The translations under genes were made by a program, and so were the position numbers. A stretch of DNA of 64,000 bases. Origin: the human T2T-CHM13v2.0 reference genome, Homo sapiens. Below are positions 21,816 through 30,479 of the stretch, piece after piece. A model generated the notes under the pieces. The model ran no database searches. It had not been told where the DNA came from and was given only the letters and a program-made list of their open reading frames with translations. The stretch lies in assembly GCF_009914755.1 (NCBI RefSeq), contig NC_060941.1; one strand, 5' to 3'. Position 1 is the first letter of the stretch; each line of letters begins with the position of its first letter.

Positions 21816-21921
21816 CTGAAATGTGTCCCATCATCTGAGTCGTCCCTCATTCCCAAGCTCCCACATATTCACAGAGGCCCATCCTGACATATATGCTGCC
21901 TTTGAAGGTCTGGACAAATAC
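21816..21921 (-). pseudogene. Pseudo-exon: CRD exon 2 homolog
   Basis: cag|...|gtgact. Reads VFVQTFKGSIYVRMGLCEYVGAWE* vs CLEC10[26 protein letters not shown]. 106 nt vs 107 nt. Confidence 0.85.
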
Positions 21922-21992
21922 CTGAGACACACATGGGTGGTGTTGACTTCTCTCCACCCCAGATGTAGGTGCTCCTAGGCTGGGGATCTCAT

Positions 21993-22144
21993 CAGCTCTT
22001 CCTGGAGTGGACGGCAACCAGGTGGGGGTTCTCCAGCTGGTGGAGTGTTCTCAGCCTCGGGCCAAAATGCCTAAAAGCAGGATGGCCGGTGGCAGCTGTC
22101 TTTGGGCTCTAACCAGCTCCCAGGGCAGAAGGTTCCCATGGAGC
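21993..22144 (-). pseudogene. Pseudo-exon: CRD exon 1 homolog
   Basis: Reads SSMGTFCPGSWLEPKDSCHRPSCF*AFWPEAEN(fs)QLENPHLVAVHS vs ASGR2 [47 protein letters not shown]. Donor decayed to ATGAG. Confidence 0.88.
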
Positions 22145-22220
22145 CTGATGGATAGAGGCCAGGTTCCCGTGGGGGAGGGCAACATGGCAGGATGAAGGCT
22201 GGGCATGGAGCCCTCCTCAC

Positions 22221-22308
22221 TGAGGCTCTCAAGGGCAGCCATGTTACAGATCAGGTCATTGCAGGTCAGTCACCAGCTGCAGGACTTGGGGGAACATGGT
22301 CATCTATC
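22221..22308 (-). pseudogene. Pseudo-exon: last neck exon homolog
   Basis: Acceptor context cccactgcccatctgtgtatgtccccag matches CLEC10A. Reads G*MTMFPQVLQLVTDL(fs)NDLICNMAALES. 88 vs 87 nt; donor gtgagg. Confidence 0.85.
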
Positions 22309-22449
22309 CTGGGGACATACACAGATGGGCAGTGGGGGACAGCAAAGGTCCCAGGAGGTCAGACACCCCTAATCCCTTCAACAGTGCCTTGGCCTGGCCC
22401 TAGCAGCTCTCAAACTCTCCACACACAACATTGCAAGGTGGTCTCGAAC

Positions 22450-22522
22450 CTGCTGAGTTCCTGCTCCTGCTTCTCCAGCTTGTTCTCCACACTGTACCAT
22501 GTAGTGTCACTCACACTGCAGG
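22450..22522 (-). pseudogene. Pseudo-exon: second (extra) neck-repeat exon
   Basis: cag|...|gttcga, 73 nt. Reads ACSVSDTTWYSVENKLEKQEQELS, a heptad neck repeat. Confidence 0.7.
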
Positions 22523-26000: not shown

Positions 26001-26157
26001 CTGTCCCACCACTGCTCCAACACTTTTGCAAGATTTTTTCTTGCAAAAAAAAGACTTTTTCTCTGACCATCCATCACTAAACCTGTACCTCACCATTACC
26101 ACCACACCACTACACCCCATTATTTCTGTCTTCTCTGTCCACCCCTGTGACCCTCAC

Positions 26158-26273
26158 TTTGGGATCGGACCACACAGATGACAACCAGGAGCAGGAGGCC
26201 GAGGCACAGGGACAGCAGGAGGAGGCAGTCCCAGAGTGCAGATGCTGCAGGAGGGCCTGGGGAGGAGGCAGCC
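26158..26273 (-). pseudogene. Pseudo-exon: transmembrane exon homolog with a 1-nt deletion
   Basis: 116 vs 117 nt. Reads GLPPPQALLQHLHSG(fs)CLLLLSLCLGLLLLVVICVVRSQ vs CLEC10[40 protein letters not shown]. Donor gtgagg; acceptor is GAG. Confidence 0.92.
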
Positions 26274-27151
26274 CTCAGGAGGAGGGGGTGTCAAGACGAG
26301 GAGCGTCCAGGACATGACAGAGACGGGAAGAGGAGAGGGGCCAGGGAGCTGTCTAGAGAGGAGGGCTGAGCATAAAGGACACCAGGAAAGGGCGGGATGG
26401 GAAGGATTTCAGGGTGGGGGATGCCCAGGCCTTTGACCTCAGGGACCAGCACAAGTCCTCAGTCACACAGGCCCCTCACACCCGTGGGGACCACCAAACA
26501 CACACACACAGATGGGGGATAATGGAGATATGTGAGGTCCCATGGTCAGAGCTGGGGAAGGGGCAGAAGGACACAGGGAGAGCTGGGGGCAGCCAGGCCC
26601 TTCATAGGCTCACGCTCATCTGTGAAAGCAGGTGAAATTATGGTCTTCCTTTGAAGACTTTCCTAAATAACCCATGTTTTTCCTGCTTCCTGTCCCTGTG
26701 CCACTGAGGACCCTAACTCCCCTGAAGACTAGGACCACAGAGGCCAGGCCCTGAACCCTCAGAGAGGGGGATCTCCACAGTCCATACTGGAGTCACAGAA
26801 ATGACCAAAACCAGGAGCCCTGGAGCTACAGCACAGGGGAGACATGAGAAACCCCTCATTGCAGATAGAGGCATTGTCGGCCGGGCGCGGTGGCTCACGC
26901 CTATAATCCCTGCACTTTGGGAGGCCAAGGATCACCTGAGGTTGGGAGTTCGAGACCAGCCTGACCAACGTGCAGAAACCCCGTCTCTACTAAAAATATG
27001 AAATTAGCCAGGCATGGTGGCGCATACCTGTAATCCCAGCTACTCAGGAGGCTGAGGCAGGAGAATCACTTGAACCCAGGAGGTGGAAGCTGCAGTGAGC
27101 CGAGATCACATCATTGCATTCCAGCCTGGGCAACAAGAGCAAAACTCCATC

Positions 27152-27335
27152 AAAAAAAAAAAAAAAAAGAAGGAAAGAAGGAAAAGAAAGAAAAGAAAGG
27201 AAAGGAAGAAAAGAAGGAAAGAAAGAAAAGAAAAGAAAGGAAAGAAAAGAAAGAAAAGAAAGAAAAGAAAGAAAGAAAGAAAGAAAGAAAGAAAGAAAGA
27301 AAGAAAGAAAGAAAGAAAGAAAGAAAGAAAGAAAG
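27152..27335 (+). repeat. Polypurine (GAAA)n/(GAAAA)n expansion of an Alu tail
   Basis: About 185 nt of A/G only, ending in a pure (GAAA)n run. Confidence 0.95.
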
Positions 27336-28275
27336 AGTTACTGTCTCTGAGAGAGGCACCATCCTTAGACTAGACCTCCTGGGCTTCACACTTTAGAGGG
27401 CCCTCACTGGCCCTCCTGTGACTCCATCCCTTCCTGTGGGACTGGGAATCTCCAGGGCCAAGGTGATGTGCTCACCCCAAGCCATACCTGCCCTTCTAGA
27501 CCATCCTCTGGGTACCTGGGAGCCCAGATCGTCCACCCAGGCAGCTGTACACCTGTCTTCCCCGGGCCTGTCCCCTGGGTGGCAGACCCTGCTCCTGGTG
27601 TGCCCACCCTGAGGCTCAAGTGGTAGCCATGGGCAGGGGTTGGGGGGGTGAATGGAGGGTGTGGACCATGCTGAAGGTGTCCTCACGTGTCCCCCAGGCT
27701 CCTCAAGGTGCAAGACTGAGCTGAGGGAAGGGAGCAAAGGGAAGTGAGCTCAAGAGGAACTAGCTCAGGCCTCTGCAAACTTTGAGGGGTGGGCCTGTCT
27801 CTGGGGTCTTCTGCTTGTCTTACCTTTTCTTTTTCTTTTTCTTTTTTTTTCTTGAGACAGAGTCTCGCTCTGTTGCCAGGCTGGAGTGTAGTGGCGCGAT
27901 CTTGGCTCACTGCAACCTCCGCCTCCCAGGTTCAAGCAATTATCCTGCCTCAGCCTAATAAGTAGCTGGGACTACAGGCACCCACCACCATGCCCAGCTA
28001 ATTTTTGTATTTTTTAGTAGAGACAGGTTTCACCATGTTGGCCAGGATGGTCTTGATCTCTTGAACTCACGATCCGCCTGCCTCAGCCTCCCAAAGTGCT
28101 GGGATCACAGGTGTGAGCCACTGCACCCGGCCCAATTTTTTATTTTTAGTAGAGACGGGGTTTCGCCATGTTGGCCAGGCTGGTCTCGAACTCCTGACCT
28201 CAGGTGATCCACCCACCTCAGCCTCCCAAAGTGCTGGGATTACAGGCGTGAGCCGCCGCACCTGGCCTGTCATAC

Positions 28276-28409
28276 CTTTTCTAAGATCATGTTCCTTCTC
28301 ACTCTCTAAGCACTTGAGGTCTTCATACTTCATTGACATCCTTGGCCCAAGTGGTCTCTGTGGCTGCAGGAGCTGAGATGGAGGCAGAGAAAGGACTCCG
28401 AGGGGGAGC
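28276..28409 (-). pseudogene. Pseudo-exon: first coding exon homolog (cytoplasmic tail)
   Basis: ttatttcag| acceptor, ATG at 28339, reads [22 protein letters not shown], donor |gtatga, phase 1 as in CLEC10A. YEDL corresponds to the YENF endocytosis motif. Confidence 0.88.
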
Positions 28410-30479
28410 CTGAAATAAGGGCTGGAGGTGGGTGTGGAGCTGGTTTTGAGGTAGGAAGTGAGGATTCGATAGAGGCTGAGCCAGGCGTGAGGACTAGGAA
28501 TGTGGCTGGGGGCTGGGTTTGCAGGTGAGGTTGAAACAGCGATCACAATTGGGGTTGTATCTGGGGTTAGGATGGGGTTGACTTACTTGGGGCTAAAAAT
28601 CAGATTGGGTCTCAGGCTAAGATTGTAGACAGGGCTCCTTTGGAGTTGGGTCTGAGTTTGGGGCTGAGATTGGAAACATGTGGGATGGAGCATGGGGGTG
28701 TAGTACAGCTAGGCTGGAGCTGCAGTGGGGACAGAGATTGAATTTAGGGATGAATTTAGAGCCGACATTGGGACTGCAGTTGGGGCTGGAACTGGGATTG
28801 TATTGGTTTGGGGCTGTCCAACCCAATCTGGAAGTCAGTGGAGAGATCATTTCAATCTCCTCCAATAACTAGTTCAATCTGTGATCCATCTTCCCAGTTA
28901 TTTCCACCTATAACACAAAGTCGCCCTCTCCATATTTTCCCTAATGCCCTCCCTGCCTCCGCCGTCCAGTTACCTGTACAAAACTAGAGAATGTAATTGT
29001 TTGCTTTCTTAGGTAGCAGAATTACCAGGTCAGGAAATTCTAGAGGGAACTGACTTGTATTGGTTCTCCTGCTCCCCTCTACATTCTGTGGCCCTGGTAG
29101 AACTGTGATCTCACGCTCCTGCTGGGTGGCTTCTCTCCCATGATCCAAAATCTTTCAGACCCAGGGGAGAGAGGCACAGAGCTGCTTGGGTGGATGATCT
29201 GGGTGGATGTTCTTTACTTTTGTGCCTTCAGGCTTCAGAGTGGTGATGTCTCTGCTATTCTTAGCCACAGGGACTTCACCAACTTTTGTTGGCTTCCTCA
29301 ACCCTGCTCACACTCTGTAAATGTCATTAAACTCTTTTCAATAAACCCTTTTGTGGCCAAGCACTGCAGCTCATACCTGTAATCCTAGCAGTTTGGGAGG
29401 CCAAGGCAGGACAATCGCTTGAGCCCAGGAGTTTGAAACCACCCTGGGCAACATAGTGAGACCCTATCTCTACAAAAAATAAACTTAGCCAGGCATGGGG
29501 GCACACATCTATAGTCTCAGCTACTCAGGAGGCTGAGAAGAGAGGATTGCTTGAGTCCAGGAGTTCAAGGCTGCAGTGAGCTATGATCGCACCACTGCAT
29601 TCTAGCCTGGGTGACAGAACAAGAACCTGTCTCTCTATATATATATGTAGAGAGAGAGAAAGAGAAATAAATCCTTTGGTTTTGACACCTGTATCTTGCT
29701 GGAACTGATTAAAAAAAAACCCTTTGAATAAAATTATAAATGTTTACTATGGTACACAGAAAAATAAAAAAGAATAAACTCCATTTGGAAGTCTAACAGG
29801 CTCCTCAAACTCAACATGTTCAAAATAAAGCTTCTTATCTCCTCATCCCACCCACAAAACCAGCTTCTCACACGGTCTTCCCATCTTAATTAACTGGGAC
29901 TCCATCCTTCTAGGTTTTCAAGCCCCAAACCTGGAATTATCCTTGACTTTCTCATTTTCCCAAACCCCTCAGACAACCCATCAGCAAATCCTGACAGCTA
30001 ATTCAGACATTCCTATATGCCAGGGAGCTTTCTGGGTACAGTAATACAGCAATGAATGGGTCCTGCCATCCCTTAATGAACTTAAAAAGTTGGTTCTTAA
30101 TAGCTGAAATGCAGCTGGGTGTGGTGGCTCATGCCTGTAATCCCAGCACTTTGGGAGGCCGAGGCGGGCTGATCACCTGAGGTCGGGAGTTGGAGACCAG
30201 CCTGACCAACCTGGAGAAACCCCATCTCTACTTAAAACACAAAAGTAGCCAGACATGGTGGCAGGCTCCTGTAATCCCAGCTACTCGGAAGGCTGAGGCA
30301 GGAGAATCACTTGAACCTGGGAGGCGGAGGTTGCAGTGAGCTGAGATGACGCCATTGCACTCCAGCCTGGGCAACAAGAAGGAAATTCCCGTCTCAAAAA
30401 AAAAAAAAAAAAAAAAAATCAAAATAGCTGAGATGCTTCCCTGGTATATGCTGGATTGATTGAAAAAACAGAAATCTCC

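What the first reader, a model, noticed from the sequence alone, without database searches (positions are those of the whole stretch)
21816..28974. Hidden fourth member of the ASGR/CLEC10A cluster: a near-complete unprocessed lectin pseudogene
Seen: eight colinear minus-strand exon remnants (cytoplasmic tail, TM, four neck exons, two CRD exons) with exon sizes 64(coding)/116/94/72/73/88/152/106. CLEC10A has 67/117/96/72/-/87/155/107. Splice sites are mostly intact and intron phases match. It is disabled by frameshifts and stops. Established: human is described as having one MGL gene, while mouse has tandem Clec10a (Mgl1) and Mgl2. Inference: this is a lost second MGL-like gene on the SLC16A11 side. 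It is either the positional counterpart of one rodent gene or an older paralog that may still be intact in other mammals. Its tail (YEDL...HDLRKG) and CRD exon start (GCTCC, lacking CLEC10A's 3 extra nt) look ASGR-like or ancestral.
Basis: partly seen in the sequence, partly recalled or inferred. Interest (0 to 1): 0.85.

Follow-up and report, generated by a model that had tools for sequence, protein, structure and literature searches.

The report
Dead CLEC10A-like lectin gene copy
Just downstream of the human macrophage lectin gene CLEC10A lies a very old, badly decayed duplicate of that gene that cannot make a lectin; it is an ordinary kind of genomic fossil that preserves the ancestral gene layout and is not the human counterpart of mouse Mgl2.

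Summary
Intron flanks also align to CLEC10A, so this is an unprocessed tandem duplicate about 2.3 kb downstream of CLEC10A.

It is dead. It has at least 8 frameshifts, one TAG and one GT>AT donor. The last CRD exon is missing and no exon 1 or promoter is detectable.

In three trees it sits inside the CLEC10A/MGL clade, not with ASGR1 or ASGR2 (SH-aLRT 99; bootstrap/SH-aLRT 100/99). All 36 rodent CLEC10A-type proteins form one rodent-only clade.

Intron divergence from CLEC10A is K2P about 0.37. No Alu is shared between the copies. The copy keeps a fourth neck exon that anthropoid CLEC10A lost. Together these point to a duplication near the base of placental mammals, although AU tests cannot exclude a primate-stem origin.

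Its exons changed at about the neutral rate, so it died early or at birth. No intact orthologue was seen.

It is absent from the RefSeq table and from the papers searched. GENCODE could not be checked. Interest is modest.

The parts
28276..28409 (-). Exon 2 remnant. It holds part of the 5' UTR and the cytoplasmic tail. The ATG is at 28339-28337, the coding part is 64 nt (28276-28339), and it carries a YEDL motif.
   Evidence: blastn 70%, E 1.9e-15. Ends and GT donor. AG acceptor region kept. The tail reads without a break.
26158..26273 (-). Exon 3 remnant, the transmembrane signal-anchor. It is 116 nt against 117 in CLEC10A, with a frameshift near 26229.
   Evidence: blastn 85%, E 4.8e-46. Boundaries. 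Frameshift. Pfam Lectin_N scores 24.6 bits, below the 28.3 cut-off.
22778..22871 (-). Exon 4 remnant, neck. It is 94 nt against 96, with a frameshift near 22833.
22628..22699 (-). Exon 5 remnant, neck. It is 72 nt, with an open frame and both splice sites canonical.
22450..22522 (-). Fourth neck exon ('e5b'), 73 nt against an inferred ancestral 72. It is absent from the human CLEC10A mRNA and is homologous to exon 5 of ASGR2.
   Evidence: Aligns to ASGR2 64479-64563 at 69% and to the relic in CLEC10A intron 5. The same segment is present in lemur, colugo, bat, mole and cat CLEC10A proteins.
22221..22308 (-). Exon 6 remnant, neck. It is 88 nt against 87, with two frameshifts near 22298 and 22260.
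21993..22144 (-). Exon 7 remnant, the first CRD exon, 152 nt. It has a TAG at 22073-22071, two frameshifts near 22046 and 22003, a GT>AT donor, and conserved cysteines replaced.
21816..21921 (-). Exon 8 remnant, the second CRD exon. It is 106 nt against 107, with two frameshifts near 21849 and 21832.
21713..21815 (-). Intron 8 remnant. Homology to CLEC10A stops at 21713, which corresponds to 29 nt before the acceptor of the last CRD exon. That exon is missing.
   Evidence: Block 21713-21962 aligns to 31923-32180. No unique homology to CLEC10A 29001-31925 was found in window 8001-21720.
21312..21607 (-). Alu element about 105 nt beyond the 3' end of homology. It may be linked to loss of the last exon; this is not shown.
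28340..28942 (-). Intron 1 remnant. Two blocks align to CLEC10A intron 1. Homology stops about 48 nt short of where exon 1 would lie.
   Evidence: Blocks 28270-28535 and 28805-28942. No exon 1 or promoter similarity beyond them.
26115..26620 (-). High-identity tract of about 0.5 kb covering the TM exon and the 3' part of intron 2. It looks like a gene-conversion tract shared with CLEC10A 34625-35108.
   Evidence: 82% over 511 nt. K2P is 0.136 against about 0.37 elsewhere. Sliding windows read 80-98% inside the tract and 50-65% outside.
23260..26005 (.). LTR-retrotransposon-like insertion in intron 3, absent from CLEC10A. It consists of two direct repeats of about 400 nt lying 1.6 kb apart, with an Alu inside the first.
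   Evidence: The repeats are 82.6% identical, K2P 0.204. A third copy lies at 39507-40239.
26858..28270 (.). Alu elements and a purine-rich simple repeat that enlarge intron 2. None is present at the matching place in CLEC10A.

Best explanation
This is an ancient, non-functional, unprocessed pseudogene of the MGL/CLEC10A lineage. It arose when the ancestral MGL gene was duplicated in tandem. The copy lies about 2.3 kb downstream of CLEC10A in the same orientation.

The duplication most likely happened around the base of placental mammals. The copy was disabled at birth or soon after and has drifted neutrally since. It accumulated at least 8 frameshifts, a stop codon and a broken splice donor. 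It also took in several Alus and an LTR-type element. It has no last CRD exon, the exon that carries the end of the sugar-binding domain in its relatives, and no recognisable exon 1 or promoter. It therefore cannot encode a lectin.

Because it froze early, it preserves the ancestral ten-exon layout with four neck exons, which anthropoid CLEC10A later lost. A tract of about 0.5 kb around the transmembrane exon was probably homogenised with CLEC10A by gene conversion much later.

Shown here: the anatomy, the lesions, membership of the CLEC10A clade, and exclusion from the rodent clade. Inferred: the date, the early death and the gene conversion.
For: - **Homology and layout.** Seven colinear blocks totalling 2460 aligned nt include introns. 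By comparison, 1073 nt align to ASGR1 and 417 nt to ASGR2.
- **Lesions.** Frameshifts and the stop are. The last exon and the 3' flank are not found. Exon 1 and the promoter are not found.
- **Clade.** It falls inside the CLEC10A clade in three trees:
  - 85 rows, SH-aLRT 99
  - 92 rows, SH-aLRT 99
  - 48 rows, careful search, bootstrap/SH-aLRT 100/99
- **Rodents.** The rodent clade of 36 rows excludes it.
- **Age.**
  - Five intron blocks of 96-187 aligned nt give K2P 0.31-0.41, mean 0.37.
  - An LTR pair inserted only in this copy gives K2P 0.20.
  - No Alu is shared between the two copies.
  - The copy keeps neck exon e5b, which human CLEC10A has only as a relic split by an Alu.
  - In the trees it joins at the Afrotheria/Laurasiatheria node.
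- **Neutral drift.** At sites where CLEC10A, ASGR1 and ASGR2 agree, the copy differs at 69 of 343 (20%). CLEC10A-specific changes number 17 of 291 (5.8%). Half the intron distance is about 0.19.
- **Conversion tract.**
Against: - **The date is soft.** AU tests do not reject the copy grouping with primates (p 0.217) or with anthropoids (p 0.23). They also do not reject it lying outside all intact CLEC10A (p 0.081). Its end branch is long (0.84-0.94), so its exact place is unsure.
- **Distance bias.** The intron distances come from local alignments, which pick the better-preserved stretches. I dropped five blocks with under 50 aligned nt.
- **Calibration.** Converting distance to time rests on lineage branch lengths that I recalled, not on any call.
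- **Codon-position test has little power.** Changes in the copy were 21/111, 28/131 and 20/101 at positions 1, 2 and 3 (p 0.89). The working gene CLEC10A is just as even, so only the amount of change is informative.
- **The high-identity tract** could reflect constraint rather than conversion.
- **No other mammalian genome could be inspected**, so neither synteny nor the presence of the relic elsewhere was tested.
Confidence: 0.8

Rival explanations
1. It was a working second MGL gene for a long time and was lost only later. This is the reader's 'lost gene', with intact orthologues possibly still present in other mammals.
For: Splice sites are well kept: every acceptor and 7 of 8 donors. Exons 2 and 5 still read open. 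A truncated copy lying downstream of a complete one is not what a simple partial tandem duplication gives, so the last exon may have been deleted secondarily (inference). Afrotherian 'CLEC10A-like' proteins sit in the same unresolved node as the copy.
Against: Change at family-conserved exon sites is 20%. That is as high as half the intron distance (about 0.19) and 3.4 times that of CLEC10A. This leaves little room for a long constrained phase; by rough inference, at most about a third of its history. None of the 74 intact CLEC10A-clade proteins pairs with it.
Confidence: 0.2
2. It is a younger duplicate made on the primate stem, about 75 million years ago or later. It only looks basal because a neutrally decaying sequence is pulled towards the root of the tree.
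For: AU tests do not reject the copy grouping with primates (p 0.217) or with anthropoids (p 0.23). The highest protein identities are to strepsirrhine CLEC10A: 53-54% to Otolemur and Propithecus. The copy's end branch is long.
Against: Intron K2P of about 0.37 is nearly twice that of an LTR pair inserted in this copy only (0.20). It is also roughly twice what two human-lineage copies that split at the primate root should show; that calibration is recalled. No Alu is shared between the copies. The copy keeps exon e5b. The free trees place it with Afrotheria and Laurasiatheria (SH-aLRT 97; 83/98).
Confidence: 0.12
3. It is the human positional counterpart (orthologue) of one of the two mouse genes, Mgl1 or Mgl2.
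For: Only the analogy that mice have two tandem MGL genes and humans one (passages in PMC5350155 and PMC5934495).
Against: The Mus musculus partial protein and the second Mus-type paralogue are 86-89% identical. They group together (SH-aLRT 99) inside a rodent-only clade of 36 rows (SH-aLRT 99) that excludes the copy. Nannospalax, Apodemus and ground-squirrel pairs are also lineage-specific. The reading of these rows as Mgl1 and Mgl2 is my inference from recall; no call gave those names. The weaker grouping 'copy plus all rodents' is not rejected by the AU test (p 0.081), but that grouping would not make it the orthologue of one mouse gene.
Confidence: 0.02
4. The locus is not inert. The 0.5-kb tract around the transmembrane exon is a conserved regulatory element, or the locus is part of a non-coding transcript.
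For: The tract has 80-98% identity with sharp edges. It lies 2.3 kb downstream of CLEC10A on the same strand.
Against: RefSeq lists no gene or functional element there (hub table). A tract of this length with sharp edges fits gene conversion. No expression or conservation data could be consulted.
Confidence: 0.07

Closest known systems
Human CLEC10A (MGL, CD301), the neighbouring parent-type gene at window 31209-36923
   Same: Same strand and exon order. Intron positions and phases match. Seven coding exons align at 65-85% and parts of introns 1, 2, 3, 5 and 8 also align. It falls in the CLEC10A clade in all three trees.
   Different: The copy has no open reading frame, no last CRD exon and no recognisable exon 1 or promoter. 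It keeps the fourth neck exon that human CLEC10A has only as an Alu-split relic. Its first CRD exon is 152 nt, not 155. Its tail reads YEDL, not YENF.
Non-anthropoid CLEC10A proteins (lemur, colugo, bats, mole, carnivores)
   Same: The four-neck-exon layout. The tail begins MSMKYEDL as in bat CLEC10A-type proteins (MKYEDL in lemur). Protein identity reaches 53-54% over 220-246 columns.
   Different: Those are intact genes. None pairs specifically with the copy in the trees.
Mouse Mgl1/Mgl2 (Clec10a/Mgl2) tandem pair
   Same: A tandem duplicate of an MGL gene within the same cluster.
   Different: The rodent duplicates are lineage-specific and group together inside a rodent-only clade. The human copy is far older and dead.
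ASGR1 and ASGR2 (hepatic asialoglycoprotein receptor subunits)
   Same: Same gene family and the same exon plan. Exon e5b is homologous to ASGR2 exon 5. The first CRD exon is 152 nt as in ASGR2.
   Different: The copy is separated from both ASGR clades with 99-100 support. Far less DNA aligns: 1073 and 417 nt against 2460 nt to CLEC10A.

Membership tests
Unprocessed (duplicated) pseudogene | Keeps introns at the parent's positions, with intron sequence homology; it is not an intronless retrocopy. | tested here: met
   Seven colinear blocks that include introns. Exon ends fall on AG/GT sites.
Unprocessed (duplicated) pseudogene | Disabling lesions that exclude a full-length product. | tested here: met
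   At least 8 frameshifts, 1 TAG and a GT>AT donor. The last CRD exon is absent.
Unprocessed (duplicated) pseudogene | Lies beside its parent gene in tandem. | tested here: met
   About 2.3 kb downstream of CLEC10A on the same strand (hub table).
MGL/CLEC10A lineage of group II C-type lectins | Groups with CLEC10A orthologues rather than with ASGR1 or ASGR2. | tested here: met
   CLEC10A clade including the copy: SH-aLRT 99 and 100/99.
MGL/CLEC10A lineage of group II C-type lectins | Neck built from two 72-nt heptad exons (e5 and e5b) rather than the single one in the ASGRs. | tested here: met
   Both exons are present.
Functional ASGR/MGL-type lectin (Pfam Lectin_N + Lectin_C) | A complete CRD, including the last exon that carries the end of the sugar-binding domain. 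| tested here: not met
   No hit to the last exon of CLEC10A or ASGR2 outside those two genes. That this exon carries the Ca2+/galactose-binding residues is recalled, not tested here.
Functional ASGR/MGL-type lectin (Pfam Lectin_N + Lectin_C) | Lectin_N profile score above the curated cut-off. | tested here: not met
   In the whole-genome six-frame scan, e3 scores 24.6 bits and e4/e5 18.3 bits against a cut-off of 28.3. ASGR1, ASGR2 and CLEC10A pass. Exon-by-exon scoring lowers every score.
Orthologue of a mouse Mgl gene | Groups with one mouse paralogue to the exclusion of the other. | tested here: not met
   The Mus paralogues group together (SH-aLRT 99) within a rodent-only clade of 36 rows.
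Orthologue of a mouse Mgl gene | Same position relative to SLC16A11 and CLEC10A in the mouse genome. | not testable with these tools
   No non-human mammalian genome is held.

The most novel reading that the evidence does not exclude
The relic is the only human trace of a second MGL gene that existed in the placental ancestor. Orthologues of it may survive intact in some orders; for example, the afrotherian 'CLEC10A-like' genes share its unresolved node. Long after its death the relic exchanged about 0.5 kb with CLEC10A by gene conversion. If so, part of the working gene's transmembrane exon and intron 2 in anthropoids may derive from a pseudogene, or the reverse.
Probability: 0.12. Interest if true: 0.5.

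Novelty: new member of a known kind. Interest (0 to 1): 0.3.

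Why it matters
It adds a fourth, dead member to the human ASGR1-ASGR2-CLEC10A lectin cluster. It shows that the statement 'one MGL in humans, two in mice' reflects independent histories: an ancient human duplicate that died, and recent rodent duplications.

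Because it froze early, the relic records the ancestral gene plan. That plan has four neck exons, a 152-nt first CRD exon and a YEDL tail. The relic also helped to reveal that human CLEC10A lost a neck exon, whose relic is split by an Alu.

In practice, its sequence could attract mis-mapped reads or probes for the CLEC10A transmembrane exon region, which is 80-98% identical. The region also sits beside the SLC16A11 locus. No functional consequence is shown.

Tried and rejected
- **Last CRD exon.** Searched with blastn and tblastn over the whole window, and with a sensitive blastn of CLEC10A 29001-31925 against 8001-21720. All 105 hits fell in repeat piles and none was unique.
- **Exon 1 and promoter.** The local alignment scored no better than shuffles.
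- **Processed pseudogene or chance similarity.** Rejected because of intron homology and colinearity.
- **ASGR-type origin.** Rejected by the trees.
- **Codon-position test for past selection.** Uninformative, because the working gene CLEC10A is just as even across positions.
- **Target-site duplications around the Alu at the 3' break.** None was clear by eye, so the cause of the exon loss stays open.
- **AU tests.** They resolved none of the four placements tried.
- **50%-cluster representative search.** Mostly returned giant multi-CTLD proteins; 31 of the 150 listed were 200-450 aa and usable.
- **Papers.** Searches found no mention of a human MGL/CLEC10A pseudogene. The symbols CLEC10AP1, CLEC10AP, ASGR1P1 and ASGR2P1 occur 0 times in the 10 papers listed; the 93 matches appear to come from the unrelated term MGLP. 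The 2020 review PMC7404283 contains the word 'pseudogene' 0 times.

Full report
**What is there**

The hub's CLEC10A coding exons translate cleanly to 289 aa. I searched these exons, with 30-nt flanks, against window 20001-30500 by blastn. Seven of the 8 coding exons hit on the minus strand, in gene order:
- e2: 28270-28387, 70%, E 1.9e-15
- e3: 26129-26302, 85%, E 4.8e-46
- e4: 22754-22883, 73%, E 1.9e-19
- e5: 22601-22717, 65%, E 1.2e-9
- e6: 22211-22337, 70%, E 2.5e-14
- e7: 21988-22149, 73%, E 5e-24
- e8: 21805-21950, 66%, E 2e-13

tblastn finds the two CRD exons (joint E 2.2e-7) and the transmembrane exon (E 1.1e-4). The alignments run into the intron flanks.

After crude Alu masking, seven colinear blocks totalling 2460 nt join window 21713-28942 to CLEC10A 31923-36676. 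This is an unprocessed duplicate. It is neither a retrocopy nor a chance match.

**Exon map**

Placing the exon ends on splice sites gives the following:
- e2: 28276-28339, 64 coding nt. The exon continues to about 28409, and its acceptor is kept.
- e3: 26158-26273, 116 nt
- e4: 22778-22871, 94 nt
- e5: 22628-22699, 72 nt
- e5b: 22450-22522, 73 nt
- e6: 22221-22308, 88 nt
- e7: 21993-22144, 152 nt
- e8: 21816-21921, 106 nt

All acceptors are AG. Seven of 8 donors are GT, and e7 has AT.

**The extra neck exon**

The 73-nt exon e5b is genuine.
- It aligns to ASGR2 exon 5 at 69%.
- It corresponds to a neck segment present in Propithecus, Cynocephalus, bat, mole and jaguar CLEC10A proteins and absent from anthropoid ones.
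- Human CLEC10A intron 5 still holds its relic. The relic keeps its acceptor, has a GT>AT donor, and is split by an Alu that has a target-site duplication of about 13 nt.

So the ancestral MGL gene had four neck exons. The pseudogene keeps that plan. The ASGRs carry only the e5b-type exon.

**Lesions**

I aligned three reference proteins to the concatenated remnants with a frameshift-aware method. The result is:
- at least 8 frameshifts: one each in e3 and e4, and two each in e6, e7 and e8
- one TAG in e7, at 22073-22071
- several CRD cysteines replaced

The last CRD exon is missing. Homology stops at 21713, which is 29 nt before the point where that exon's acceptor would lie. About 105 nt further on is an Alu. 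Nothing unique from CLEC10A 29001-31925 is found anywhere in 8001-21720.

At the 5' end, homology stops at 28942, about 48 nt short of where exon 1 would be. The next 390 nt resemble CLEC10A exon 1 and promoter no more than shuffled sequence does: score 11.0, shuffle mean 11.0. CLEC10A, ASGR1 and ASGR2 do share that region at about 62%.

**Whole-genome scan**

I ran the Pfam Lectin_N profile over the whole human assembly in six frames.
- ASGR1, ASGR2 and CLEC10A score above the cut-off.
- This locus scores below it: 24.6 and 18.3 bits against 28.3.
- No other relic appears on chr17.

This sub-threshold score may be why automatic annotation would miss it.

**Which lineage**

I collected named mammalian proteins with three database searches and one representative search. 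I built trees that included the conceptual translation of the remnants, with X at every break.

| Tree | Rows | Support for the CLEC10A clade including the copy |
|---|---|---|
| quick | 85 | SH-aLRT 99 (27 rows) |
| quick, LG+G4 | 92 | SH-aLRT 99 (75 rows) |
| careful | 48 | bootstrap/SH-aLRT 100/99 (38 rows) |

In all three the copy is apart from ASGR1 and ASGR2. Far more DNA aligns to CLEC10A (2460 nt) than to ASGR1 (1073 nt) or ASGR2 (417 nt).

Within the clade it joins an unresolved node with the afrotherian and laurasiatherian sequences (SH-aLRT 97; 83/98). None of the 74 intact clade members pairs with it.

Its end branch is long (0.84-0.94), so its fine placement is weak. AU tests reject none of four alternatives:
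- copy with primates: p 0.217
- copy with anthropoids: p 0.23
- copy with rodents: p 0.081
- all intact CLEC10A without the copy: p 0.081

**Rodent question**

All 36 rodent CLEC10A-type rows form one clade (SH-aLRT 99). The paired genes of Nannospalax, Apodemus, ground squirrels and Mus each group within their own lineage. The partial Mus musculus protein and the second Mus-type paralogue are 86-89% identical and group together (SH-aLRT 99).

I read these two as Mgl1 and Mgl2 from recall; no call supplied those names. Passages in two papers say that humans have one MGL and mice two (PMC5350155 and PMC5934495).

**Age**

Five intron blocks with 96-187 aligned nt give K2P of 0.31-0.41, mean 0.37. 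I dropped five shorter blocks of under 50 nt. Those are splice-adjacent, and the local aligner keeps only their best stretch.

Several observations point to an old duplication:
- An LTR-type element present only in this copy has two LTRs at K2P 0.20. The duplication is therefore about twice as old as that insertion.
- No Alu is shared at matching positions.
- The copy keeps e5b.

The per-lineage distance is about 0.19. From branch lengths that I recall, not from any call, this is close to the neutral distance from human back to the placental ancestor. It is about twice the distance back to the primate ancestor. The tree position agrees with this. I therefore put the duplication near the base of placentals, with moderate confidence.

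**Did it ever work?**

I counted changes at sites where CLEC10A, ASGR1 and ASGR2 all agree. The copy differs at 69 of 343 sites (20%). CLEC10A-specific changes number 17 of 291 (5.8%). The copy's figure equals the neutral per-lineage distance from the introns, so there is no sign of a long constrained phase.

The even spread over codon positions (21/111, 28/131, 20/101) adds little, because CLEC10A is just as even.

A truncated copy lying downstream of a complete one is not what a simple partial tandem duplication gives. The missing last exon is therefore probably a later deletion; this is inference. Whether the copy was born complete cannot be told from these data.

**A younger patch**

From 26115 to 26620, covering the TM exon and the 3' part of intron 2, identity to CLEC10A is 80-98% in 50-column windows. 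Outside the tract it falls to 50-65%. K2P in the intron part of the tract is 0.136. The ASGRs do not align in that intron part. Gene conversion is the simplest reading, and constraint is the alternative.

**Known or new**

The hub's RefSeq table has no gene at this locus. Seven paper searches found no mention of a human MGL/CLEC10A pseudogene. Pseudogene-style symbols occur 0 times in the 10 papers listed. The 2020 review of ASGR1 and CLEC10A contains the word 'pseudogene' 0 times and describes the locus as CLEC10A-ASGR2 with ASGR1 nearby (PMC7404283, passages).

GENCODE and the pseudogene databases could not be consulted, and supplements were not read. So 'unannotated' holds only for the sources named here.

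**Verdict**

This is a real, ancient and thoroughly dead CLEC10A-type duplicate. It is useful as a record of the ancestral gene plan and as evidence that the mouse and human copy numbers arose independently. As a kind of object it is ordinary.

Noticed in passing
window 32909-32958 and 33289-33312 (minus strand), with the Alu at 32959-33288: Human CLEC10A intron 5 contains a relic of the fourth neck exon. The acceptor AG is kept and the donor is GT>AT. The relic is split by an Alu flanked by a target-site duplication of about 13 nt. Its reading still resembles the lemur neck segment.
   Followed up: partly
window 23260-26005; third copy at 39507-40239: An LTR-retrotransposon-like element sits in the pseudogene's intron 3. 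It has two direct repeats of about 400 nt that are 82.6% identical and 1.6 kb apart, with an Alu inside the first. The family name was not determined.
   Followed up: partly
window 32403-32557 versus 63675-63826: The first CRD exon of CLEC10A is 91% identical in DNA to that of ASGR2, but only 81% identical to that of ASGR1. This may reflect gene conversion or strong constraint between the two neighbours.
   Followed up: no
proteins P0118, P0106 and P0001 (Myotis): Myotis 'CLEC10A-like' and 'ASGR2-like' models combine an MGL-type tail and neck with an ASGR2-type end of the CRD. P0001 looks like two adjacent genes fused into one model.
   Followed up: no
protein P0093 (Carlito syrichta, CLEC10A-like): The tarsier has a lineage-specific second CLEC10A copy. 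It is sister to the tarsier's own CLEC10A and has a divergent end of the CRD.
   Followed up: no
window 27150-27340: A long purine-rich (AAGG/AAAG)-type simple repeat follows an Alu tail in the pseudogene's intron 2.
   Followed up: no
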